11,523 nt of DNA from a virus: the UHGV virus genome UHGV-0861165; one strand, given 5' to 3'. This document shows, piece after piece, positions 1 to 10,297 of the stretch. Position 1 is the stretch's first letter. Every line of letters begins with the position of its first letter. The notes beneath the pieces were generated by a model that was not told the origin of the DNA, did no database searches, and saw only the letters and a program-made list of their open reading frames with translations. The position numbers and the translations under genes were made by a program.

Positions 1-2748
1 ATTGAGCATGGACCAGATGCTGTCCTGACTTTACCCGAGGGTAATGCCAGCGCAGGACTCCCGTCTTCCGTTCGCTACAATGCCGACTCCGACGAATTTG
101 AGGGCTTCTATGAAAATGGTGGATGGTTGCCGCTGGGTGGCGGTGGTATCCGCTGGGAAGTCCTTCCGCATGCCTCTACGGCAACGCTCACTGAAGGGCG
201 AGGCTATCTCATTAATAATACCACAGGGGCATCTACAGTGGTTCTCCCTTCCCCTACGCGTATTGGGGATTCTGTTACTATTTGTGATGCTTATGGGAAA
301 TTTGCCACTTACCCATTGACTGTGTCTCCTTCTGGAAATAATTTGTATGGCTCCACTGAAGACATGGCTATAACAACTGATAACGTATCAGCAACGTTCA
401 CTTGGTCTGGACCTGAACAAGGTTGGGTTATCACATCCGGTGTCGGTCTTGGCCAAGGTCGTGTCTACAGTCGTGAAATCTTTACAAAAATTTTGGCGTC
501 TGAAACAAGTGCTGTCGCTCTCAATACTCCACCAACAATCGTGGACGTGTATGCTGACGGAAAACGTCTTGCGGAATCCAAATATTCACTAGATGGGAAT
601 GTAATCACTTTCAGTCCTTCTTTGCCAGCCAACACAGAACTTCAGGTGATTGAATATACTCCTATTCAATTGGGTAATAGCGGTGGTTCTGGTTCTTCTA
701 CGATTACCTGGGTCTATAATGGGGGTTCAGCGATTGGCGGTGAAACCGAAATCACTTTGGACGTCGTTGTTGATGATGTTCCGGCCATTGATATAAACGG
801 AAGTCGCCAGTATAAAAATCTGGGATTCACATTCGATCCATTAACCAGTAAAATCTATCTTGCACAAGAACTGGAACCAGAGGATGAAGTTGTTGTAATT
901 ATCAATGGAACACCAAACATCTATAATCAAATTGATCATACTTTGCGGGAAGTTGCTCGTGCTACTAACGTTAAAGACAGTGAAGTAATTCTTAGTTCTG
1001 ACACTACTCAGTCCCTTAATGGTAAGAAGATTATTTACTCTGTTAGTGAGCAGAAGGCATATAGTTTACCTACTCTACCGTCCAATGTATTTATTGAATC
1101 TGTTGAAAGTGGGAAATTAACATATAGTCCTGGCTCAATTAAGGTAGATCTACTCCCATTACCTAATGACTCTGCTGTAACTGAGCAAGCAATTCTCAAC
1201 CAGTTGTCTGCAATTGAAGGTGAATCCCTTATTGGAACAGTTACCTATGTAACCCTGCGAGAGTACACAGGCTCAGCTACACGTGTTAAGTGTATCGGTA
1301 GAAGTGTAGAGGGGGATGGTGGTGAGGGGGACTTCTATTTAGTACCTGGTGATTCTACTTCAGTAGATGATGATGGGGTAATTATTGTTGATGGTTCCGG
1401 CCGTCGTTGGAAACGTTCCTATTCTGGCCCAATTTCTGCCTCTTGGTTCGGTGTAAGAGATGGTACTGACGTCACCACTACACTACAAAATGCAGTTAGT
1501 CGGGGTGGTGGACAAATCTTTGTACAGGACGGTCAGTACACACTTACTGCTCCCATCGTTGCAAATTTTACTGGTGCATCTTTCCCAATTATGGGAAGAA
1601 AAAGTAAGCGTTTTGATTTCATTGGTTCATCCATGGCGAACACCACTTTTAATACTAATGGTAATGAAGCGTTTAGTTTTACCGGTACTGATGGTTCTGT
1701 AGCTGGTCAGGGTGTACATAGTGGTGCACGTATTAGTGACTTCAGCGTCTATGGCACAAATAATACAGGCATTGGTGTACGTTTGGTTGGTGCTGCATAC
1801 CTCAAAGTACATGACCTCCAAATTAAACGTACTAATATCGCTATGCGTATTTCTGGTGTACTCTCAAGTGATATAAAACGAATCAATGCTCAATATAACA
1901 ACCATGGTATGTACATCACCAGTGCTTCTAACAGTACAGTCAATGCTATGCGTATTAGTGGGATGTTTGGTGCTAATAGTAAATGGGGAATTGAAGGTGA
2001 AGTAGGTACTAACGTATACATTGAAGATTCTAATTTTGAGGGTAATGGTACAGATGGGGATGAACTGTCTGGTGCTATTTACTTACGAGTTGTAGAACCT
2101 TTGAGCACCATTAACATTAGTGGGTACTTTGAGGCTAACGTTGGGCGAGCAGATATACTGATAGATAACCGAACCAGCTCTCCTTTGGTTGTAAACCTCC
2201 GTGGTTGCGTATTTAATCGTGGTGGTATGCGTGGTGGGTCTAATCTTGGTATTGGTGCAAAGTATAATGTTGAGACACGCTCTACTGGCGGTGGTCCAAT
2301 CATCCTTAATCTTAATGGTTGTGTATTCTTTACACAGACGGGTTTTGGATATGTACCTAGTGCAGATTCTCCATATATACAACCAGCACCATACTTAACT
2401 GTTAATGGGGAAGATACTTGTTACTTTAGTGAATCTACTAGTCGTGGTGAGACTGGGAACCGTGGTATGACATTAGGTATTTCTATGAAAGCTGATGGAA
2501 CCATGGCCAATAAACCACCTTTCTTAACCTCAACTCGTGTTTCTGCTGGTGTATACACCATCACACACAATACTAGATTCGGGACGGATATTGATCATTT
2601 CCAGGCAGTGGCTACGTCTAAGGCCAGTGGTTTTACTGTATCTTATGTGCAGAAGGTTAACTTACAGGCATTACGCATCGTTACATTAAATGCAGCAGGT
2701 TCGCCTGCTGATACTGATTTTGATGTTATAGTCACTTCTCGTCGTTAA
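1..2748 (+). CDS. Tail spike protein, long form, 5'-partial: N-terminal tandem small beta-domains (gp10-like by recollection), internal docking motif, then right-handed parallel beta-helix depolymerase-type domain
   Basis: Frame 1 has no stop from position 1 to TAA at 2746-2748. The ORF-track start at 127 is a TTG inside this open frame, so the gene begins upstream of the window. The translation shows periodic beta-helix-like repeats rich in G/N/S/T (e.g. GIGVRLVGAAYLKVHDLQIKRTNIAMRISG, NVYIEDSNFEGNG). It is paralogous to ORF3 in the docking motif (REVARATNVKDSEVIL...QKAYSLPTLP) and the pre-helix neck motif. Confidence 0.85.
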   Translation: MEHGPDAVLTLPEGNASAGLPSSVRYNADSDEFEGFYENGGWLPLGGGGIRWEVLPHASTATLTEGRGYLINNTTGASTVVLPSPTRIGDSVTICDAYGKFATYPLTVSPSGNNLYGSTEDMAITTDNVSATFTWSGPEQGWVITSGVGLGQGRVYSREIFTKILASETSAVALNTPPTIVDVYADGKRLAESKYSLDGNVITFSPSLPANTELQVIEYTPIQLGNSGGSGSSTITWVYNGGSAIGGETEITLDVVVDDVPAIDINGSRQYKNLGFTFDPLTSKIYLAQELEPEDEVVVIINGTPNIYNQIDHTLREVARATNVKDSEVILSSDTTQSLNGKKIIYSVSEQKAYSLPTLPSNVFIESVESGKLTYSPGSIKVDLLPLPNDSAVTEQAILNQLSAIEGESLIGTVTYVTLREYTGSATRVKCIGRSVEGDGGEGDFYLVPGDSTSVDDDGVIIVDGSGRRWKRSYSGPISASWFGVRDGTDVTTTLQNAVSRGGGQIFVQDGQYTLTAPIVANFTGASFPIMGRKSKRFDFIGSSMANTTFNTNGNEAFSFTGTDGSVAGQGVHSGARISDFSVYGTNNTGIGVRLVGAAYLKVHDLQIKRTNIAMRISGVLSSDIKRINAQYNNHGMYITSASNSTVNAMRISGMFGANSKWGIEGEVGTNVYIEDSNFEGNGTDGDELSGAIYLRVVEPLSTINISGYFEANVGRADILIDNRTSSPLVVNLRGCVFNRGGMRGGSNLGIGAKYNVETRSTGGGPIILNLNGCVFFTQTGFGYVPSADSPYIQPAPYLTVNGEDTCYFSESTSRGETGNRGMTLGISMKADGTMANKPPFLTSTRVSAGVYTITHNTRFGTDIDHFQAVATSKASGFTVSYVQKVNLQALRIVTLNAAGSPADTDFDVIVTSRR

Positions 2749-2754
2749 CTGATA

Positions 2755-2775
2755 CCCCTCCTCGGAGGGGGTTTC
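2755..2775 (+). terminator. Terminator-like GC hairpin (CCCCTC / GAGGGG stem, short loop) followed by TTTCT
   Basis: Perfect inverted repeat CCCCTC(2755-2760)...GAGGGG(2765-2770) with a T-rich 3' flank, 7 nt after the ORF1 stop. The T-tract is short, so it may be a partial terminator or an RNA-stability element. Confidence 0.55.
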
Positions 2776-2880
2776 TAGAAAAACAATGAGGTACATATGA
2801 ACGGATTATTCTTACAAGGTGGTAAAGGTTCAACCGGGATCTTAACCAATAAACAAGCAATAGCTCGGCATTTCGGTGTC
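2776..2880 (+). repeat. Junction cassette copy A: CTAGAAAAACAA-GAGGT-ATATGAACG plus conserved 5' coding segment of the short tail spike
   Basis: By eye, near-identical at nucleotide level to 8103-8209 (TAGAAAAACAAtGAGGTacATATGAACGgatTaTTCTtACAAGGTGGTAAAGG... versus TAGAAAAACAAaGAGGTttATATGAACGaaaTgTTCTcACAAGGTGGTAAAGG...). Includes the RBS (GAGG) and the ATG at 2797. Confidence 0.7.
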
Positions 2881-5301
2881 AAAGAAGACGAAGTCGTTTA
2901 TTTCACTGTCGGTATTGATCTCAGTGGATTTAAAGTAATTTATGATGAGTCTACCCAACGGGCTTATTCTCTTCCTTCAGGTATTGTTTCAGGAACGACT
3001 GCGATAAGCCTTAATTCTGCTGGGGTATTAGTCCATTCTGCTGGTAATGTGGATTTAGGTGCACTAGCTGTTACCCGGGAAGAGTATGTAACTTTACCTG
3101 GTTCATTCGAGACGGGTGTAACCGTTAATGCCAAGAATGAGTTAGTTGTCTTTGCGAATGGCAAGTATCGTTGGGATGGGGCATTGCCTAAAGTGGTTGA
3201 TGCAGCCTCATCCCCCGAAACCAGTGGTGGTATTGCTTCAGGTGCTTGGGTAGGTGTGGTTTCTGCTCTCCTAACAACAGCCAGCGGTACTGGGCTTGTA
3301 GGTCACAAAGGTGCTAACTTTAGTGACACCACTGCCTACCTTTACCTATCCTGGCGTAATGGTGATATTACTGCATTCGGGGGTGTGTACGATGACGCCT
3401 CAGCTGGTGATCTAAATAAAGCAGCCTTTGCTACTATGCAGGATACTTTTGGGGGTGTACGTATAAACCTCATGGGTAAAGCAGTTTACCTACCAAACTC
3501 TATGGAGTTAGAGGTAGGGAGTCTGGAAATCTGGGGTGGTGGTAATATTTTCGGTGGTTCTGGATACATGTTCCGTGCTGGTGACAACGGATTCGTTAAC
3601 ATTAAGGAATTTACCCTACAAAGTATTGATGCAAGTGGTAACGACTTCACTCGCCTTGTTGGTGCACCCTCTAATCGTGTTAACCTCATCCAGTATGTTG
3701 AAGCAGCATATTTCAAAACGATTGGAAGAGTCATCGTATTCGCTGGCAATGGTCGCGCCGGTGGAGACTTTAATCCAGTAGAGACAAGTTACGGCTGTAA
3801 GCAGATTAACTTCCATCACTTTTCATGCGAAGAGCCAGGAGACTATCTCGTTTCTGCCCAGAACTATCCGTTTGATACCTTCAGTGTCACTAAGTTTTAT
3901 GTACATAATATGAAGGGTACGCTCATCAATGCTGGAATTGATAACGATCATGTCTATGAGCGTCAGCTAAACCACGCAATGAAAACCCTCATCGTTTCCG
4001 ACTACACCGTCATGAACGAAGATGATTTCTGGGCTGATGGCGTCTTTACCTATACTACGGTAGCTATCGCTGAAGTTGAGCACCTAGTTCACACCAACGG
4101 TCGCCAACATGGTGTTAAAGTCAAAGAGGCTGGTAATGTAGTCTACGACATCTACAATAATGCATTTAGCGTCCAAGAAGAAAATATCTTTATCAGTGAC
4201 TGTTTCAACTGGAACGACGGGATGCTCATGCCTCACAAGATTAAAGGGGCGTGGAGCTATTCGAGTAAGAATAAGCACTGGGTGTACCGTAAGAGTTATG
4301 TGGTGGCAATGAAAGCTATTCACAGTGGTATTTCAGAAGGAAACGCCAAAGGTTCTTTCTTCTATCCCGAAACGGATGACCTGCACACTAGTGCTGCTTC
4401 TTCTGTCACTGATTGGACGCAACGACAAATCACGATCACTGACTGTTTCATTGAACTGATTAAAGTTAATCAGGCTAACCTTTCACGTCCATTGTTCAAT
4501 GTGCGTTTGGATGGCAACACCTTTGTTACACACGATTCTGGTACTACCCATTTGGTTCAGTTCTCTGCCTATCCCCATAACCTCTATCAGCAGATGACGG
4601 TAACAAATAACCGTATCATAGCTCCGGCTCTTACGTTATCTGCATTGGTAGGCTTCTCCGCAGGTTCTCAGGCTGGTGGAGGAGTATTCCAGGGGGTTGT
4701 CGATATTTCGAACAATACCGTTCGGGCAGCAGCGGCGAATTTGCTGGCAGATTGGTCTGGTGGTCAGAATATCGGAACTGGGTCAGTCATCCGTATCGAC
4801 AATAACGATATGGTTACCACAGGCAACTGCCAGATCTGTAACTCTAATCCGTCCTATGTTGACTCTGTATTTGCTAGAAACAACTATTTGCAGGGCACTG
4901 CGACTGTAGGGATGGGTAAGCTGAACGCATCTGCCTACGCATATGAGACTGTGAATGGGTTTAAGGGGAACAGTCCGATTGTTCTGTTCCAGCAGGGAAT
5001 CCCAACAGCGCAGCAGATTAATAGTCGCTCGTATCGCCTGGAGATTTCTGGAACTAATGGTGAGAAAGTAACCCAAGGTTTCACTATCACTGCTGGCGTC
5101 AGCACGACTTCAATACGCTTCGTGAGTTCCGATGGGAACACGTACACGAAGGTAACTGGAACCGATAATGGCACCTTCGAAATGCAATCCACTTCATCGG
5201 ATGGGTTAAATTTAGAGGTCGTGGTTGCATCTGATGGTGTAACAGTCAGAACAGCGTCGTCTGTGATGCAAAGGTTTGAAGCTCGACTGTATGCTCTGTA
5301 A
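2797..5301 (+). CDS. Tail spike protein, short form (834 aa): N-terminal anchor module shared with ORF4, divergent central and C-terminal receptor-binding/enzymatic region
   Basis: ATG at 2797 preceded by GAGG with a 5-nt spacer; uninterrupted 2505-nt ORF. The first ~155 aa (MNGLFLQGGKGSTGILTNKQAIARHFGVKEDEVVYF...KVIYDESTQRAYSLP...) are clearly homologous to the ORF4 N-terminus. The C-terminus is rich in G/T/S/V beta-strand-like sequence typical of tail spike C-terminal domains. Enzymatic fold not assignable by eye. Confidence 0.85.
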   Translation: MNGLFLQGGKGSTGILTNKQAIARHFGVKEDEVVYFTVGIDLSGFKVIYDESTQRAYSLPSGIVSGTTAISLNSAGVLVHSAGNVDLGALAVTREEYVTLPGSFETGVTVNAKNELVVFANGKYRWDGALPKVVDAASSPETSGGIASGAWVGVVSALLTTASGTGLVGHKGANFSDTTAYLYLSWRNGDITAFGGVYDDASAGDLNKAAFATMQDTFGGVRINLMGKAVYLPNSMELEVGSLEIWGGGNIFGGSGYMFRAGDNGFVNIKEFTLQSIDASGNDFTRLVGAPSNRVNLIQYVEAAYFKTIGRVIVFAGNGRAGGDFNPVETSYGCKQINFHHFSCEEPGDYLVSAQNYPFDTFSVTKFYVHNMKGTLINAGIDNDHVYERQLNHAMKTLIVSDYTVMNEDDFWADGVFTYTTVAIAEVEHLVHTNGRQHGVKVKEAGNVVYDIYNNAFSVQEENIFISDCFNWNDGMLMPHKIKGAWSYSSKNKHWVYRKSYVVAMKAIHSGISEGNAKGSFFYPETDDLHTSAASSVTDWTQRQITITDCFIELIKVNQANLSRPLFNVRLDGNTFVTHDSGTTHLVQFSAYPHNLYQQMTVTNNRIIAPALTLSALVGFSAGSQAGGGVFQGVVDISNNTVRAAAANLLADWSGGQNIGTGSVIRIDNNDMVTTGNCQICNSNPSYVDSVFARNNYLQGTATVGMGKLNASAYAYETVNGFKGNSPIVLFQQGIPTAQQINSRSYRLEISGTNGEKVTQGFTITAGVSTTSIRFVSSDGNTYTKVTGTDNGTFEMQSTSSDGLNLEVVVASDGVTVRTASSVMQRFEARLYAL

Positions 5302-5302
5302 G

Positions 5303-5330
5303 AACAACCCCGCTTCGGCGGGTTCTTGTT
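5303..5330 (+). terminator. Terminator-like hairpin with CCCGC-TTCG-GCGGG core (UUCG-type tetraloop) and T-rich 3' flank
   Basis: CCCGC(5309-5313) TTCG GCGGG(5318-5322), flanked by partially complementary AACAA/TTGTT arms, followed by TTCTTGTT. Lies immediately after the ORF2 stop (5299-5301). Confidence 0.45.
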
Positions 5331-5368: not shown

Positions 5369-5404
5369 CCCCATATTGGCAAATCCTCTATGGGGTATCT
5401 TCAA

Positions 5405-8068
5405 ATGACCAGAAACGTCGAGAGCATCTTTGGAGCGGTCGTAACAGCTCCGCACCAGATTCCATACACTTACACAGCAACGGGCGGAGAGAAGTTTATC
5501 TCCCTCCCTTTCTACCCTGTCACTGGTATAGTCACAATCAACGGTGGTATGCAAGTTCCGTTAGACAACTTTGAAATCGATGGAAATACGTTGAATCTCG
5601 GGTGTGCATTATCCAAAGGTGACGTTGTGTTCTGTCTGTTTGATAAGATTCTGTCTCCAGAAGATTATAAAACTGGGATTCGAATCTATAAGTTTCAGGC
5701 TATAGGAGGTGAAACCGAGTTCACTCCTGATTACACATCCTATGGAGTCCAATCTCTTTATATCGGTGGTGAGTACAAAACACCCGAAATTGAATATTCC
5801 TATGACAGCACGACAGGGAAAGTGACTTTACAAACTGCGCTGACTGCAGGCGTTTGGGTAGTCGCTGAAATGTCTGTTAAACAACCGAATATCAGTCCGT
5901 TGTTTGACCGAAGTATTCAAGAAATCGCCCGTTCAGCTAATGTAAAAGATTCTGAGGTAATTCTTAATACGGATACATCTCAAGTACTCAATAACAAGAA
6001 AGTTATCTTCGATGCAGCTGCTCAGAAAATTTATGGCCTGCCTTCATTACCGACCAATGTCTATATTAGTTCTGTGTCTAATGGTCAGTTAACCTACAGT
6101 CCAGGTAACATTACCGTAGATTTGATGGAAGTTCCTAATTCTGGTGCTAGTCTCAGAGAAGACCTGAGTAAGCCTGATGGTAGCAAGCTCATTGGTTCAT
6201 GCCCCAATATTGCAGTACTGCGAACAATTGAGCCTACCTATGCTGAACAACGCATTTACGTAGAAGCACATACTGAAGGTATGATTGCAACCAATGCAGG
6301 TGATTTAGGTGGCGGGTATTTTGTATATAAACCATCTGTTACATCAGCAGATGACAATGGTATGACTATTGTTACTGCATCCGGCAAGCGTTGGGTACGT
6401 GATTTACGTGGTAGCACCGAAGTTACCCCATCTATGTTTGGTGCGTGGATGGATGCTCCTTATATTGATGGGAGCACTATTCAGGGTACACCTTATCCTA
6501 AAGCACCAAGTATGGGGGCTGCTGACCTGTCTGGTGTGCACAATGATGGGGATGCTTTGCTGGCAACCTACACATATGCTGTAGCTAATGGGTTGAATAT
6601 CAAAATTACTCAACCGATGTACATTGGTGATACACAGATTGATATTAGCAATCAGCGTTGGACTGGTAGATCTCTATCCATTACGGGTCTTGGTCAGAGA
6701 CAAAGTATTATTTATACATCAGGTAAGGGTGGATTCATCTCTACCAGATGGGGACACAATATTACCGTTGGTCGCCTCTCTTTCCGTAATGCTGATTCTG
6801 ATTACGTAGGTAGTCCTCTTGTTATCAGTTCATTCGACTTAAGTAATGGCATCGGTGGTGGTGGTAAAACATTCAATATTCACGATGTGGACTTTTACCA
6901 CTATAAGTTCGCTTTGCCTATGGCTTGCTTTGTCAGTGTTATGACCAATTTGTATGCATATGACTGTACCTATGGTTTTGGTATCAATGGAAGCACTAGT
7001 ACGGATATGTCATCTATTTGGGCACACCATTGTGACATTGGCTTTTTATGGGGAGCTGCCATTAATCGTACTACATACGAGCCAGCCAATAATGAAACAC
7101 CTGTTATGTATGTTGCTACCAGCAACATTGCAGCAGATGGTTGCATTTTACCTCATAAATTTTATGGAGATATTCGTAGCCTTTCCTTCTCTGGCTTTGG
7201 TATTGAAGGGATAAATGGTCCAGTGGCATTAGACTTCTCACAGTTAGCCTCCCCTGCTGCACAAACAACAATCGTATTCAGAGATGTTTCTTGTTGGATT
7301 CAGTCTAAAATGAATACTGGTGTAACTCATTTTATTGAGTTGCCTGCTAATGAGTACCAGGCTGGTAGGATTATTTTTGACAGTGGTTACGTTAACTCTG
7401 ACTATGCTATCAAATTGATGGAGAATACCACTTCTCCAAGTAACCAGTATATTGGGCGTAGTGTTACATTAAATAGTAATTTTGAATTTTTAAAAGTTAG
7501 CGATGGTTCCTACACAATATCTACATATAACCGTGGTAACCTTTACCGGGGCAGGGTATATGGAGAAGATATTGTACAAGGTCGTAACTCGTACACGGGT
7601 ACTACTTTGTCAGCAATCCATTCTAATAGTAATTCCTTCTTCAGAAGTGTTGACCATAAGGAAGCTACTGTACTGGTTCCATGGAACAGGGCTTTAGATA
7701 TATTCCTTTGTGCTGTAGGGGAAGAGACTAAAATTCCGGATGGTTGCTTCGTTGCTGGGCGTGCAGATATCATTCCAGTTAACAAAAATGGTTTGGCTGG
7801 TACTGAATCAGGGGGCAGTATTCTGTTTGGGCTATCCGGTAGCACACAGGAAAATGTAGCCTCTGGTGCAGTCTGGTCTAATATGATTGCTGGTGATAAA
7901 TCTCTTTCCGGGGTAACAGTAACTAAACTGGTACGTGATGGTAAAACATTTGTTAGAATCGCATTGCCTACGGCAAGCCTAACAAATGCAATCGTTCACC
8001 TTTCTGTAACCTACTGTGGTTTTGCACATTACTACGATAAGCGTTGGGAAATAAAACCCTTAAGCTAA
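5405..8068 (+). CDS. Tail spike protein, long form (887 aa from ATG 5405; 892 aa if the in-frame ATG at 5390 is used): N-terminal tandem small beta-domains, docking motif, neck motif, beta-helix depolymerase-type domain
   Basis: Uninterrupted frame to TAA 8066-8068. Start ambiguity: the ATG at 5390 has no SD and sits in the 3' arm of an inverted repeat, whereas the ATG at 5405 has a leader that parallels the ORF5 leader. The protein is paralogous to ORF1 in the docking motif (QEIARSANVKDSEVIL...QKIYGLPSLP) and the neck motif (GGGYFVYKPSVTSADDNGMTIVTASGKRWVRD). Confidence 0.85.
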   Translation: MTRNVESIFGAVVTAPHQIPYTYTATGGEKFISLPFYPVTGIVTINGGMQVPLDNFEIDGNTLNLGCALSKGDVVFCLFDKILSPEDYKTGIRIYKFQAIGGETEFTPDYTSYGVQSLYIGGEYKTPEIEYSYDSTTGKVTLQTALTAGVWVVAEMSVKQPNISPLFDRSIQEIARSANVKDSEVILNTDTSQVLNNKKVIFDAAAQKIYGLPSLPTNVYISSVSNGQLTYSPGNITVDLMEVPNSGASLREDLSKPDGSKLIGSCPNIAVLRTIEPTYAEQRIYVEAHTEGMIATNAGDLGGGYFVYKPSVTSADDNGMTIVTASGKRWVRDLRGSTEVTPSMFGAWMDAPYIDGSTIQGTPYPKAPSMGAADLSGVHNDGDALLATYTYAVANGLNIKITQPMYIGDTQIDISNQRWTGRSLSITGLGQRQSIIYTSGKGGFISTRWGHNITVGRLSFRNADSDYVGSPLVISSFDLSNGIGGGGKTFNIHDVDFYHYKFALPMACFVSVMTNLYAYDCTYGFGINGSTSTDMSSIWAHHCDIGFLWGAAINRTTYEPANNETPVMYVATSNIAADGCILPHKFYGDIRSLSFSGFGIEGINGPVALDFSQLASPAAQTTIVFRDVSCWIQSKMNTGVTHFIELPANEYQAGRIIFDSGYVNSDYAIKLMENTTSPSNQYIGRSVTLNSNFEFLKVSDGSYTISTYNRGNLYRGRVYGEDIVQGRNSYTGTTLSAIHSNSNSFFRSVDHKEATVLVPWNRALDIFLCAVGEETKIPDGCFVAGRADIIPVNKNGLAGTESGGSILFGLSGSTQENVASGAVWSNMIAGDKSLSGVTVTKLVRDGKTFVRIALPTASLTNAIVHLSVTYCGFAHYYDKRWEIKPLS

Positions 8069-8078
8069 TTAACTACCC

Positions 8079-8102
8079 CCACCCCCTTTATGGGGGTGGT
8101 TT
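8079..8102 (+). terminator. Terminator-like hairpin CCACCCCC-TTTAT-GGGGGTGG followed by TTT
   Basis: Perfect 8-bp inverted repeat (8079-8086 / 8092-8099) with a 5-nt loop and a TTT 3' tail, 10 nt after the ORF3 stop. Confidence 0.6.
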
Positions 8103-8209
8103 ACTAGAAAAACAAAGAGGTTTATATGAACGAAATGTTCTCACAAGGTGGTAAAGGCTCCACTGGTATTCTTACCAATAAGCAAGCCATTGCCCGTAAG
8201 TTTGGTGTT
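8103..8209 (+). repeat. Junction cassette copy B (see 2776-2880)
   Basis: Nucleotide-level similarity to copy A spans the leader, RBS, ATG (8126) and the first ~80 nt of coding sequence. Confidence 0.7.
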
Positions 8210-10297
8210 AAGCAATCTGAGGTTGTTTATGCCAAATCAGGACAGTCCTTGTCTGGTTATAAAGTAATCTACGATAAGGTCACTCAGCGCTCCTATGCAC
8301 TGCCTTCTAACCTGCCTGCTGGCGCTACCATCACCAGCCTGACAGACGGCATTCTCGTACACAATACGGGCACCGTAGACCTGGGTGCTCTGGCTGTACT
8401 GCGCGGGGAGTTCGTTACTCTGGTCGAAAACTTTACGTCTGGATTTACGATTCGTGTCAAAAACGAAGTTGTAAGTGATGGGGTAAATTTGTATCGCTGG
8501 GGTGGTAGTTTACCAAAGACCGTTAATTCTGGTGAAACTTTAGAAAGCACTGGGGGTATGAATACGAATGCGTGGATTGGCGTTGTATCGCTTAATAACT
8601 CATTTTTGAGTGTAAATGCTCTAAGGGCGTCAGAAAACTTAAATAAAAATATACCATTGTTTCTTTCAAGTTATTATGAAGGTATTGATGGCGGCGGCGG
8701 GTCTTTCTACGTAGATACCAACGACACTACGTCATCAGATAACAATGGTACAGTATTTGTTAACGCCTCTGGCCAGCGCATAAAACGTATTTCAGATGGT
8801 GTATGTCGTTGGTCAGACTTCGGAATTCTTCCAGGCATGCCGGTAGCGCCTACAAAATCGCAGTGTGAAGCCGTTTGGTCGTGGGGGTTTGCAAATGGGT
8901 GTACTCGTTATGAAACCTTCCAGAAAGGGGAGATGACGTTCACCTTCCCCCTGTTGTTCCAAGTTCCGGCTAACTGGACAGGTGGTGCTGTTAGCTTCAT
9001 TGCAGAAGGGTTGCATAAATTTGCTTATGATTTCAAAAATGGCGCTACAGATGATGTGATTGAGATCCTCCTTAAACTGGAAGATCTGTCAGGTAATACA
9101 CCCATCCATACTGTTTATAATTTTGATAACGTTGGGATGGGACGGTTCCCCGGGAAAAACATCCGATATACCGCACTGCGACACACGAGCGCAAAAAACT
9201 CAATGATCAAGGTTACTGGGAAGAACAACTACGGATATGCCTTGTTCATAGGCGGTAGTGATAACAGCATCGTGTACAATTCAACGTTTTATAACTGCGA
9301 TGGCCAGTTGCTTGTAAATTCTCCAGCAGGCGGTTACGACAGCTTTGGTGATGCAATTTATGTTGGCGCTAAAAATGTGTCTATCCAGAGTCCTGTAATT
9401 GAAACAACACAGGGTGGTAGAGCCGGTATCGTATTTGAAGGGACATGGGTTGAACGTGTTGGTGGTGAGGTAACAAACTGCTTTATTAAGGGATATGACC
9501 GTGGTATTCACATAGAGACTGTAGGTTTCAGGATGGATGCAATTAATATTACTGGAGGCAGGATACAAGATTGCAATACCAGCGTATTGGCATTCAATGG
9601 TGTAACTGATGATATGGGTAGTGATATGTCTGTTATCATCAAGGGGTTAACGTCAAGGCTTGATAGCACAATTTCAGGCCACGCCAATCCGTCTGGTTTT
9701 AGCCTGGGACACCTTATGGTATCTGGAGTTAACACACAAGTAACAACGGAAGGGTGCTCATGGCAGACTCACCAGAACAACATCACCGTTGTGGGTAATG
9801 GGAAATGGGTGAGCAATGGTGACCGCATGTTTGTTAACTCTGGTGGCATCAACCTGCCGTACACTCGTGGGTGCGAGATAAACAATCTGTACGCACCACA
9901 GAACAGAAACGCGTTAAAATCCGCAGGTAATTTAGTCTTTACAAACTCTTATTGGGGAGGGGACATTAACATAACCGGGGGCAATAAAACAATTATTGAT
10001 AACGTCGAGATGTCAAGACAAGGAGGATATGCAAACTGTGGTCGTATCAGTCTGGTTGGCTCCAATAGTGCGATATTGCGTAATATTATATTCCAGTATC
10101 CAGACTCATGGGCAATAGATAATACTCAAACTTGGCAGGTCCCCGTGTGTCCTATCATAGAAAACATCCACGTAAATAGCGTAGAAACAGGAACTGCAAC
10201 ATTACAAAGAAACGCAGAAAGTGGGGCTAATAATCGGTACAGAAGGTCTATTCCTTCATATATATCAAACGGAAGTACATGGACGATAATTAGTTAA
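8126..10297 (+). CDS. Tail spike protein, short form (723 aa): shared N-terminal anchor module, neck motif, right-handed beta-helix (pectate-lyase-like) depolymerase-type domain
   Basis: ATG at 8126 preceded by GAGG (8117-8120); uninterrupted 2172-nt ORF. The N-terminal ~150 aa are homologous to ORF2. Typical beta-helix repeats are visible (GGSDNSIVYNSTFYNCDGQLLVNS, AIYVGAKNVSIQSPVIETTQGGRAGIVFEG, TNCFIKGYDRGIHIET). Confidence 0.88.
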   Translation: MNEMFSQGGKGSTGILTNKQAIARKFGVKQSEVVYAKSGQSLSGYKVIYDKVTQRSYALPSNLPAGATITSLTDGILVHNTGTVDLGALAVLRGEFVTLVENFTSGFTIRVKNEVVSDGVNLYRWGGSLPKTVNSGETLESTGGMNTNAWIGVVSLNNSFLSVNALRASENLNKNIPLFLSSYYEGIDGGGGSFYVDTNDTTSSDNNGTVFVNASGQRIKRISDGVCRWSDFGILPGMPVAPTKSQCEAVWSWGFANGCTRYETFQKGEMTFTFPLLFQVPANWTGGAVSFIAEGLHKFAYDFKNGATDDVIEILLKLEDLSGNTPIHTVYNFDNVGMGRFPGKNIRYTALRHTSAKNSMIKVTGKNNYGYALFIGGSDNSIVYNSTFYNCDGQLLVNSPAGGYDSFGDAIYVGAKNVSIQSPVIETTQGGRAGIVFEGTWVERVGGEVTNCFIKGYDRGIHIETVGFRMDAINITGGRIQDCNTSVLAFNGVTDDMGSDMSVIIKGLTSRLDSTISGHANPSGFSLGHLMVSGVNTQVTTEGCSWQTHQNNITVVGNGKWVSNGDRMFVNSGGINLPYTRGCEINNLYAPQNRNALKSAGNLVFTNSYWGGDINITGGNKTIIDNVEMSRQGGYANCGRISLVGSNSAILRNIIFQYPDSWAIDNTQTWQVPVCPIIENIHVNSVETGTATLQRNAESGANNRYRRSIPSYISNGSTWTIIS

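What the first reader, a model, noticed from the sequence alone, without database searches (positions are those of the whole stretch)
931..1170. A ~50-aa motif recurs in all four spikes, internal in the long forms and N-terminal in the short forms
ORF1 REVARATNVKDSEVILSSDTTQSLNGKKIIYSVSEQKAYSLPTLPSNV and ORF3 QEIARSANVKDSEVILNTDTSQVLNNKKVIFDAAAQKIYGLPSLPTNV (5909-6140) resemble the N-termini of the short spikes, ORF2 QAIARHFGVKEDEVVYF...FKVIYDESTQRAYSLPSGI (about 2848-2985) and ORF4 QAIARKFGVKQSEVVYA...YKVIYDKVTQRSYALPSNL (about 8177-8312). The anchor of the short spikes and a domain inside the long spikes therefore appear paralogous. This could reflect homotypic docking, or an ancestral duplication that created the branched complex.
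Basis: seen in the sequence. Interest (0 to 1): 0.6.

Follow-up and report, generated by a model that had tools for sequence, protein, structure and literature searches.

The report
Shared head module of phage tailspikes
The repeated ~50-residue motif is real, but it is the already described D1/TD1 "head" module found in all four tailspikes of Kuttervirus (CBA120-like) phages. The two short spikes use it to plug into an adaptor domain on the two long spikes, so the finding is correct but ordinary.

Summary
The window is the tailspike cluster of a Kuttervirus (Ackermannviridae) phage, in the order TSP4 (ORF1, cut by the window edge), TSP3 (ORF2), TSP2 (ORF3), TSP1 (ORF4), then VriC. The four quoted segments are at the stated coordinates. 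They are clearly homologous: long-versus-short pairs give z = 14-18, with 0 of 2000 shuffles reaching the observed score. BLASTP gives E 1e-6 to 1e-16, and profile-profile hhalign gives 99.9% probability (E 3e-33).

The motif is the first two thirds of an ~80-residue domain, the D1 (TD1) head module. This module has been solved for CBA120 TSP1-4, G7C gp63.1 and Shigella phage B2 gp48. An AlphaFold model of the ORF1 segment matches only those D1 domains in the PDB.

Published ultracentrifugation shows that the short spikes dock through D1 onto the T4 gp10-like XD3 domain of the long spikes. The long spikes' own D1 is not needed for this, so docking is heterotypic, not homotypic.

In the best 150 of 386 matching protein clusters, D1 is either N-terminal or sits directly after an XD3-like domain (87 of 87 internal copies). 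Homology with related phages breaks inside D1/D2 in all four genes, so the module is also the recombination junction.

Verdict: already known, low interest.

The parts
1..2748 (+). ORF1, the TSP4-type long spike. It is cut at its 5' end by the window edge; about 30 codons are missing. It contains the anchor domain, XD1, XD2, XD3, D1, then neck, D3'-like region and body.
   Evidence: Frame 1 is open from base 1. Residues match CBA120 TSP4-N structures 7REJ/7RFO residues 74-338 at near identity, E 1e-160. Gene order is as in Kuttervirus fGh-Ecl02.
670..915 (+). XD3 (T4 gp10-like) domain of ORF1, the predicted docking platform for the D1 of ORF4 (TSP1).
   Evidence: Boundaries are placed by the residue offset of the alignment to CBA120 TSP4-N and the construct boundaries N253/N335. 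Net charge -9, pI 4.05. The function is inferred from the ultracentrifugation data in PMC8825819.
928..1173 (+). D1/TD1 head module of ORF1 (the finding, 931-1170). It is the TSP2-type variant and is not followed by a D2 module.
   Evidence: phmmer with this 90-residue segment hits 6W4Q residues 164-246 (E 1e-23), 9D83, 9D80, 5W6H, 6NW9, 4QNL, 9D84 and 4OJ5. The AF2 model has pLDDT 80.6. Foldseek hits only D1 domains. No PF18668 match in ORF1.
2797..5301 (+). ORF2, a short spike in the TSP3 position.
2830..3084 (+). D1/TD1 module of ORF2 (residues 12-96), preceded by the conserved leader MNGLFLQGGKGS.
   Evidence: Residues 1-166 match 4OJ5 (TSP1) at E 1e-69, 6NW9 (TSP3) at E 2e-65 and 5W6H (TSP4 head) at E 2e-47. 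Domain limits follow PMC7506556.
3067..3258 (+). D2 module of ORF2 (Pfam Tail_spike_N, PF18668).
   Evidence: residues 91-154, E 8.7e-21.
5405..8068 (+). ORF3, the TSP2-type long spike: XD2 (5405-5668), XD3 (5669-5899), D1, neck, D3', body. The ATG at 5405 agrees with CBA120 TSP2 and fGh-Ecl02. An upstream in-frame ATG lies at 5390.
   Evidence: 6W4Q residues 1-342 match query residues 6-353, E 2e-142. ORF3 is 97% identical to fGh-Ecl02 TSP2 from its residue 1.
5669..5899 (+). XD3 (gp10-like) domain of ORF3, the predicted docking platform for the D1 of ORF2 (TSP3).
   Evidence: Placed by homology to CBA120 TSP2. It aligns with ORF1 XD3 (ORF1 244-484 with ORF3 104-351, 40% identity, E 7.5e-43).
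5900..6145 (+).
   Evidence: Aligned to 6W4Q D1, residues 166-247. 58% amino-acid identity to ORF1 D1.
8126..10297 (+). ORF4, a short spike in the TSP1 position.
8159..8413 (+). D1/TD1 module of ORF4 (residues 12-96). It is basic: net charge +4, pI 9.6.
   Evidence: Residues 1-154 match 9D84 gp48 (E 3e-53), 4QNL (E 1e-52) and 4OJ5 (E 3e-51). Charge.
8414..8584 (+). D2 module of ORF4 (PF18668).
   Evidence: residues 97-153, E 1.4e-12.

Best explanation
The motif is the N-terminal helix and first beta-strands of the D1 (also called TD1) head module of Ackermannviridae tailspikes. The module is an ~80-residue trimer-forming domain that sits just before the neck helix and the receptor-degrading beta-helix body.

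All four spikes of this Kuttervirus carry one copy. In ORF4 (TSP1) and ORF2 (TSP3) it is at the N-terminus. By homology with CBA120, it is the plug that docks each trimer onto the T4 gp10-like XD3 domain of a long spike: ORF4 onto ORF1/TSP4, and ORF2 onto ORF3/TSP2 once the TSP2:TSP4 pair has formed.

In ORF1 and ORF3 the same module follows XD3 in the same chain. There it simply starts that protein's own spike. It is not needed for binding the partners and does not block them.

D1 is also the last conserved block before the variable receptor-binding body, so it is where recombination exchanges bodies between spikes and between phages.

Shown here: homology, fold, domain positions, the XD3-then-D1 rule, charge complementarity, and the positions of the homology breakpoints. 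Inferred from CBA120 experiments: the actual D1:XD3 contacts in this phage.
For: Identity of the locus: a Kuttervirus tailspike cluster, with fGh-Ecl02, YX22, Det7 and others among the hits.

Homology of the four segments. The ORF1 segment alone hits every solved D1, namely 6W4Q, 5W6H, 6NW9/5W6F, 4OJ5, 4QNL and 9D80/83/84. Its AF2 model (pLDDT 80.6) matches only those D1 domains (E 7e-9 to 1e-4, TM 0.70-0.75); the next hit has E > 1.

Literature: the D1 fold is shared by TSP1-4 and gp63.1 (PMC7506556). TSP1 D1 binds TSP4 XD3, the TSP3 head binds the TSP2:TSP4-N complex, and the TSP4 head is dispensable (PMC8825819). TD1 docks on XD3 (PMC11721090; PMC11414711). TD1 was proposed as a recombination site (PMC8432352).

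Census: 386 clusters at 50% identity match the profile. In the best 150, D1 starts only near residue 10 (63 clusters), 130-200 (24), 270-320 (58) or 336-340 (5). All 87 internal copies are directly preceded by an XD3-like domain.

Charges: ORF1 XD3 is net -9 and ORF4 D1 is net +4, while ORF2 D1 is net -3. This is the same pattern as published for CBA120.

DNA homology with fGh-Ecl02 and PC3 ends inside D1 or D2 in all four genes, at window positions 941/977, 3198, 6106 and 8214/8278.
Against: No binding experiment or multimer model exists for this phage. The D1:XD3 contacts are transferred from CBA120.

ORF1's head differs from that of CBA120 TSP4: it is a TSP2-type D1 with no D2. The geometry around ORF1 XD3 could therefore differ.

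ORF2's leader (MNGLFLQGGKGSTGILT) resembles TSP1 more than CBA120 TSP3. Which XD3 it chooses is therefore not certain.

How TSP3 recognises TSP2 is unresolved even in CBA120.

The census covers only the best 150 of 386 clusters. The XD3 test used jackhmmer on a set preselected for D1.
Confidence: 0.88

Rival explanations
1. Homotypic docking: the N-terminal D1 of a short spike binds the internal D1 of a long spike, so like binds like and this builds the branched complex.
For: Both partners carry the same fold. The published CBA120 model allows secondary lateral contacts between neighbouring heads: the TSP3 head is said to 'also interact with TSP1 heads'.
Against: TSP1 binds TSP4-N335, which has no D1. 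Binding is lost when XD3 is deleted (TSP4-N253). Complexes form equally with TSP4-N490, which keeps the head. TSP1, TSP2 and TSP3 mixed together do not associate, although all carry D1 (Fig. 8A legend). In the charge estimates here only ORF4 D1 is basic (net +4); ORF1, ORF2 and ORF3 D1 are mildly acidic (net -2 to -3). These estimates offer no support for D1-D1 pairing, whereas ORF4 D1 does complement ORF1 XD3 (net -9).
Confidence: 0.04
2. D1 is conserved mainly as a DNA-level recombination linker, a shared 'splice site' for swapping receptor-binding bodies. On this view any protein-docking role is secondary.
For: Homology with relatives breaks inside D1/D2 in all four genes. CBA120 TSP4 D1 is itself a mosaic: its first ~18 residues, TLREVARVTNVKDTEVI, are long-type and the rest is short-type. 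Sorensen et al. proposed TD1 as a recombination site.
Against: Within this genome, long and short D1 share only 42-46% nucleotide identity, and ORF1/ORF3 share 61.5%. That is too little for homologous recombination between them. Conservation is at the protein and fold level across Ackermannviridae and N4-like phages. The docking role has direct biochemical support. The two roles are compatible rather than exclusive.
Confidence: 0.07
3. The resemblance is chance or a compositional similarity among beta-rich tail proteins.
For: None beyond the short length of the motif.
Against: z = 14-18 with 0 of 2000 shuffles reaching the observed score. hhalign E 3e-33. Specific structural matches to D1 only.
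Confidence: 0.01

Closest known systems
D1 (TD1) head module of Escherichia phage CBA120 tailspikes TSP1-4 (PDB 4OJ5, 6W4Q, 6NW9/5W6F, 5W6H)
   Same: Same gene cluster and order. Same positions of the module: N-terminal in TSP1/TSP3, after XD3 in TSP2/TSP4. Same fold. Same ~35% identity between the TSP2-type and the other D1s. ORF1's adaptor region and ORF3's N-terminal region are near-identical to CBA120 TSP4-N and TSP2.
   Different: Here the TSP4-position spike (ORF1) has a TSP2-type D1 and no D2. CBA120 TSP4 has a D1-D2 head about 70% identical to those of TSP1/TSP3. The receptor-binding bodies of ORF1, ORF2 and ORF4 differ from those of CBA120, with no PDB match beyond the head region.
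N4-like (Schitoviridae) spikes: G7C gp63.1/gp66, Shigella phage Moo19 gp82, B2 gp48/gp49 (PDB 4QNL, 9D80-9D84)
   Same: The same D1 module occurs either N-terminally (gp63.1, gp48) or internally after gp10-like domains (gp82 residues ~305-385, gp49 ~287-364). The short protein is carried by the long one (PMC11654681).
   Different: A podovirus tail with two partners rather than four. The bodies are esterases. B2 gp49 ends soon after its D1 (410 residues), so it is a body-less adaptor.
Bacteriophage T4 gp10 baseplate protein (domains 2 and 3 bind gp12 and gp11)
   Same: The XD domains of the long spikes adopt the gp10 folds and act as trimeric docking platforms for other trimeric fibres (PMC8825819 abstract).
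   Different: T4 gp11 and gp12 do not carry a D1 module, and gp10 has no enzymatic body. The relation concerns the socket, not the motif in the finding.
Anchor-branch receptor-binding systems of Klebsiella podophages (KP32, K11, KP34: branching domain plus conserved docking peptide)
   Same: The same logic applies: a primary spike with a gp10-like branching domain carries a secondary spike through a conserved N-terminal element (PMC13352976 abstract; PMC11721090).
   Different: There the plug is described as a short conserved peptide, not an ~80-residue folded D1 domain. No sequence relation was tested here.

Membership tests
Ackermannviridae tailspike D1/TD1 head module | Sequence homology to the D1 regions of solved TSPs | tested here: met
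   The ORF1 segment hits 6W4Q residues 164-246 at E 1e-23, 5W6H at E 8e-10, and 6NW9, 4QNL, 9D84 and 4OJ5 at E 3e-4 to 1e-3. ORF2 and ORF4 hit 4OJ5, 6NW9, 4QNL and 9D84 at E 1e-41 to 1e-69. ORF3 hits 6W4Q at E 2e-142.
Ackermannviridae tailspike D1/TD1 head module | D1 fold (N-terminal helix followed by a small beta structure) | tested here: met
   The AF2 model of ORF1 residues (window 916-1185) has pLDDT 80.6, with helix 2-16 followed by seven strands. Foldseek against the PDB hits only D1 domains, with TM 0.70-0.75 and rmsd 1.4-3.2 A. Caveat: the alignment used for the model was dominated by short-type sequences.
Ackermannviridae tailspike D1/TD1 head module | Position: N-terminal in TSP1/TSP3, directly after XD3 in TSP2/TSP4 | tested here: met
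   The rule also holds generally: 87 of 87 internal copies follow an XD3-like domain.
Ackermannviridae tailspike D1/TD1 head module | Followed by D2 (PF18668) in TSP1, TSP3 and TSP4 but not in TSP2, as in CBA120 | tested here: not met
   ORF2 and ORF4 have PF18668 and ORF3 lacks it, as expected. ORF1 (TSP4 position) also lacks it and continues like TSP2: it aligns to 6W4Q residues 99-373. This is a difference in head composition, not in D1 itself. The published review allows 'one or two tandem domains'.
Ackermannviridae tailspike D1/TD1 head module | Trimeric, and binds the XD3 trimer of the partner long spike | not testable with these tools
   Only monomer prediction is available. Support is indirect: near-identity of ORF1 XD3 to CBA120 TSP4 XD3, charge complementarity and published ultracentrifugation data.
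Kuttervirus branched tailspike cluster | Four consecutive tsp genes (TSP4-TSP3-TSP2-TSP1) between baseplate genes and vriC | tested here: met
   Synteny with fGh-Ecl02 and PC3. The right flank is 98-99% identical to the region that includes the start of VriC. The left flank lies outside the window.
T4 gp10-like XD adaptor domains (in the long spikes) | Homology to the solved TSP4-N XD1-XD3 domains | tested here: met
   ORF1 matches 7REJ/7RFO/7RFV at E 1e-105 to 1e-160. ORF3 residues 104-351 align with ORF1 residues 244-484, which include XD3. A direct comparison with T4 gp10 itself was not run.

The most novel reading that the evidence does not exclude
Every internal D1 found lies directly after an XD3-like socket, and free D1 modules bind such sockets. 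Long spikes may therefore have arisen by gene fusion of an adaptor with a spike that was docked on it. The reverse may have happened by fission; compare Moo19 gp82, which is fused, with B2 gp49 plus gp48, which are split. On this reading the branched complex grows and shrinks by fusion and fission at the XD3|D1 boundary. The cis D1 heads might also contribute lateral head-to-head contacts that set the assembly order. Neither point is demonstrated. The published data only exclude D1-D1 as the primary docking interface.
Probability: 0.3. Interest if true: 0.3.

Novelty: already known. Interest (0 to 1): 0.1.

Why it matters
D1/TD1 is the standard plug of a plug-and-socket system that lets one phage carry four different receptor-degrading enzymes. 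It is also the natural junction for engineering host range by swapping spike bodies. All of this has been published for CBA120, S117, AV101 and related phages. The finding therefore adds no new biology.

It does correctly identify the module from raw sequence. In this phage it shows a TSP4 with a TSP2-type head, which is one more example of mosaicism at this junction.

Tried and rejected
1. The word-indexed protein search with the four-segment alignment returned only 37 short fragments of 165 residues or fewer. It was useless for an architecture census, so I used the exhaustive representative search instead.

2. A full-text search for the PDB codes 9D80-9D84 returned only noise. The source paper (Moo19/B2) was found through 'gp48 gp49'. 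It does not describe which gp49 residues contact gp48, so it could not settle the docking interface.

3. The tool predicts single chains only and refuses artificial fusions.

4. I looked for recent gene conversion between the D1 copies. The DNA repeat search found only ORF2/ORF4 5' ends at 74% over 147 nt. Codon-aligned identity is 42-46% between long and short types and 61.5% between ORF1 and ORF3. Recent conversion is rejected.

5. I considered whether the cis D1 occupies its own XD3 and whether the binding seen with TSP4-N335 is an artefact of removing it. This is rejected because TSP4-N490, which keeps the head, forms the same complexes.

6. Plattner et al. 2019, the original paper on the branched complex, is not in the searchable library. 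Its conclusions are cited only through later papers.
Full report
**What the window is.** Megablast against phage genomes finds 281 records, almost all Ackermannviridae. The best are Kuttervirus phages (Enterobacter phage fGh-Ecl02, Escherichia phages YX22 and A221, Salmonella phage Det7). No record covers more than 42% of the window.

The annotated regions of fGh-Ecl02 and PC3 show the same layout. Four consecutive spike genes follow baseplate genes and precede vriC, in the order TSP4, TSP3, TSP2, TSP1. The window holds four large ORFs on the + strand.

- ORF1 has no stop upstream in frame 1 and runs off the left edge. Its residues match the crystal structures of the CBA120 TSP4 N-terminal fragment (7REJ, 7RFO, 7RFV) from residue 74 to 338 at near identity. 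About 30 codons are therefore missing, and the TTG 'start' at 127 is an artefact of the ORF listing.
- ORF3 matches full-length CBA120 TSP2 (6W4Q) from its residue 1, E 2e-142.
- ORF2 and ORF4 match the first ~155-165 residues of CBA120 TSP1 (4OJ5), TSP3 (6NW9, 5W6F), the TSP4 head (5W6H), G7C gp63.1 (4QNL) and Shigella phage B2 gp48 (9D84).

**Check of the observation.** The four quoted peptides are at the stated coordinates. Local alignment scores between the internal segments of ORF1/ORF3 and the N-terminal segments of ORF2/ORF4 are 93-114, against shuffles with mean ~25 and sd ~5. This gives z = 14-18, with 0 of 2000 shuffles reaching the observed score.

Full-length BLASTP picks out the same segments with E from 1e-6 to 9e-16. 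It gives 99.9% probability, E 3e-33, over 84 aligned columns. Those sets were themselves selected with a joint profile, so the number is somewhat generous.

The homologous unit is about 80 residues, not 50. Amino-acid identity is 34-36% between long and short types, 58% between ORF1 and ORF3, and 64% between ORF2 and ORF4. Nucleotide identity between long and short types is 42-46%. These are old paralogues, not recent conversions.

**What it is.** The 90-residue ORF1 segment on its own hits every solved copy of one domain:

| PDB entry | Protein | Residues | E-value |
|---|---|---|---|
| 6W4Q | CBA120 TSP2 | 164-246 | 1e-23 |
| 9D83 | B2 gp49 | 287-364 | 6e-20 |
| 9D80 | Moo19 gp82 | 305-385 | 1e-19 |
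| 5W6H | CBA120 TSP4 head | 4-84 | 8e-10 |
| 6NW9, 4QNL, 9D84, 4OJ5 | TSP3, G7C gp63.1, B2 gp48, TSP1 | N-terminal | 3e-4 to 1e-3 |

This domain is D1 in the papers of Herzberg and colleagues and TD1 in those of Plattner and of Sorensen. An AlphaFold2 model of the ORF1 segment has pLDDT 80.6, with one helix and then seven short strands. In a Foldseek search of the PDB it matches only those D1 domains, with E 7e-9 to 1e-4 and TM 0.70-0.75. The next hit has E > 1.

D2, the second head module (Pfam PF18668), follows D1 in ORF2 and ORF4 but not in ORF1 or ORF3.

**What is already published.** Greenfield et al. [quoted passage not shown] They report ~35% identity to the others, and ~70% identity among the others (PMC7506556).

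Chao et al. 2022 describe the domain maps: TSP1/TSP3 are D1-D2-neck-D3-D4, TSP2 is XD2-XD3-D1, and TSP4 is AD-XD1-XD2-XD3-D1-D2. They show by analytical ultracentrifugation that:

- the TSP1 head binds TSP4-N335;
- binding is lost when XD3 is deleted;
- TSP3 needs its head and a preformed TSP2:TSP4-N complex;
- all complexes also form with TSP4-N490, which retains the D1-D2 head (PMC8825819).

[quoted passage not shown] Sorensen et al. 2021 extracted TD1 from all four TSP types and proposed it as a recombination site (PMC8432352).

**How it most likely works here.** By homology, ORF4 (TSP1 position) docks through D1 on XD3 of ORF1 (TSP4). ORF2 (TSP3 position) docks on XD3 of ORF3 (TSP2) after ORF1 and ORF3 have paired through their XD2 domains. 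The D1 of each long spike merely begins that protein's own head, neck and body.

Support from this window is as follows. ORF1's adaptor region is nearly identical to the crystallised CBA120 fragment. ORF1 XD3 is strongly acidic (net -9, pI 4.05) and ORF4 D1 is basic (net +4, pI 9.6). ORF2 D1 is not basic (net -3). This is the same pattern as reported for CBA120, where the TSP3-TSP2 contact is less well understood. The contacts themselves are inferred, not shown.

**Homotypic docking.** This is not supported. The socket is XD3, the long spikes' D1 is dispensable for binding, and TSP1, TSP2 and TSP3 mixed together do not associate although all carry D1. Only secondary lateral head-head contacts, which are suggested in the published model, remain possible.

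**General rule.** An exhaustive HMMER search of 1.84 billion representatives with the four-segment profile finds 386 clusters (E <= 1e-3). In the best 150, D1 begins at only four kinds of position:

| D1 start (residue) | Clusters | Type |
|---|---|---|
| ~10 | 63 | N-terminal (short spikes) |
| 130-200 | 24 | TSP2-like |
| 270-320 | 58 | N4-like phage type, as in Moo19 gp82 |
| 336-340 | 5 | TSP4-like |

All 87 internal copies are immediately preceded by a domain homologous to ORF1/ORF3 XD3. In phage genomes the long-type D1 occurs in 338 records: ~150-160-kb Ackermannviridae of Salmonella, Escherichia, Klebsiella, Dickeya, Shigella and Serratia, and ~72-kb N4-like phages.

This pattern fits reuse of one head-plus-body cassette with or without an N-terminal adaptor. 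It also fits fusion and fission at the XD3|D1 boundary (Moo19 gp82 is fused, B2 gp49 and gp48 are split). It remains an inference.

**Recombination junction.** DNA homology between this window and its relatives ends inside the head modules of all four genes:

- ORF1 against PC3: 96% identity up to position 977, about 17 codons into D1. Against fGh-Ecl02, homology runs up to 941.
- ORF2 against PC3: up to 3198, in D2.
- ORF3 against PC3: up to 6106, in distal D1.
- ORF4 against fGh-Ecl02: up to 8214. Against PC3, up to 8278. Both are in D1.

CBA120 TSP4 D1 is itself a mosaic. Its first ~18 residues (TLREVARVTNVKDTEVI) are of the long type seen in ORF1, and the rest is of the short type. ORF1 here instead continues as a TSP2-type D1 with neck and D3'-like region, aligned to 6W4Q residues 99-373. 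This phage's TSP4 therefore carries a TSP2-type head.

**Verdict.** The feature is already known, and interest is low.

Noticed in passing
window 1-130: ORF1 is open in frame 1 from the first base (IEHGPDAVLTLPEG...). The TTG start at 127 given by the ORF listing is not the real start. By alignment to CBA120 TSP4-N, about 30 codons lie beyond the left edge of the window.
   Followed up: yes
window 928-1500 (ORF1): The TSP4-position spike has a TSP2-type head: D1 only, no PF18668 D2, followed by a neck and a D3'-like region aligned to 6W4Q residues 99-373. CBA120 TSP4 has a D1-D2 head of the TSP1/TSP3 type, and its D1 is a mosaic whose first ~18 residues are of the type seen here.
   Followed up: partly
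window 941-977, 3198, 6106, 8214-8278: Nucleotide homology with the closest relatives (fGh-Ecl02, PC3) ends inside D1 or D2 in all four spike genes. This is consistent with the head modules being the exchange junction for receptor-binding bodies.
   Followed up: partly
window 2755-2901 and 8084-8230: The two short-spike genes share a conserved upstream leader: a GC-rich hairpin (terminator-like) followed by TTTCTAGAAAAACAA(T/A)GAGGT..ATATG. Identity is 74% over 147 nt, including the first 105 coding bases. A similar hairpin (CCCCGCTTCGGCGGG) follows ORF2 at about 5309-5324.
   Followed up: no
window 1356-1406, 6340-6390, 8728-8778: A third shared motif (TS.DD.G..IV..SG.RW) recurs in ORF1, ORF3 and ORF4 downstream of the head. 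ORF1-ORF4 and ORF3-ORF4 BLASTP alignments extend through it. It may be the D3' module, which CBA120 has only in TSP2 and TSP4. If so, the TSP1-position spike here carries it too.
   Followed up: no
window 5390-5405: ORF3 has two in-frame ATGs, at 5390 and 5405. CBA120 TSP2 and the fGh-Ecl02 annotation both start at the second (MTRNVE...).
   Followed up: partly
L003 9001-9312 (ENA metagenome contig, 151,655 bp); proteins P0005, P0011, P0013, P0015, P0018: There are recurrent free-standing 102-103-residue ORFs that consist only of a short-type D1 and end in a conserved tail (...AVYRDLKSNENAL/P). Some clusters have 36-66 member sequences. In L003 the ORF lies inside a myovirus baseplate module, after a GDSL-lipase protein and before 80- and 495-residue ORFs. 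It could be a split spike gene or a D1-only cap on an XD3 socket.
   Followed up: partly
L001 4486-6588 (Enterobacter phage fGh-Ecl02 TSP3-position gene): This 700-residue spike lacks D1. It matches ORF2 only from D2 on: ORF2 residues 102-151 align with its residues 38-89. How it attaches to the complex is unclear.
   Followed up: no
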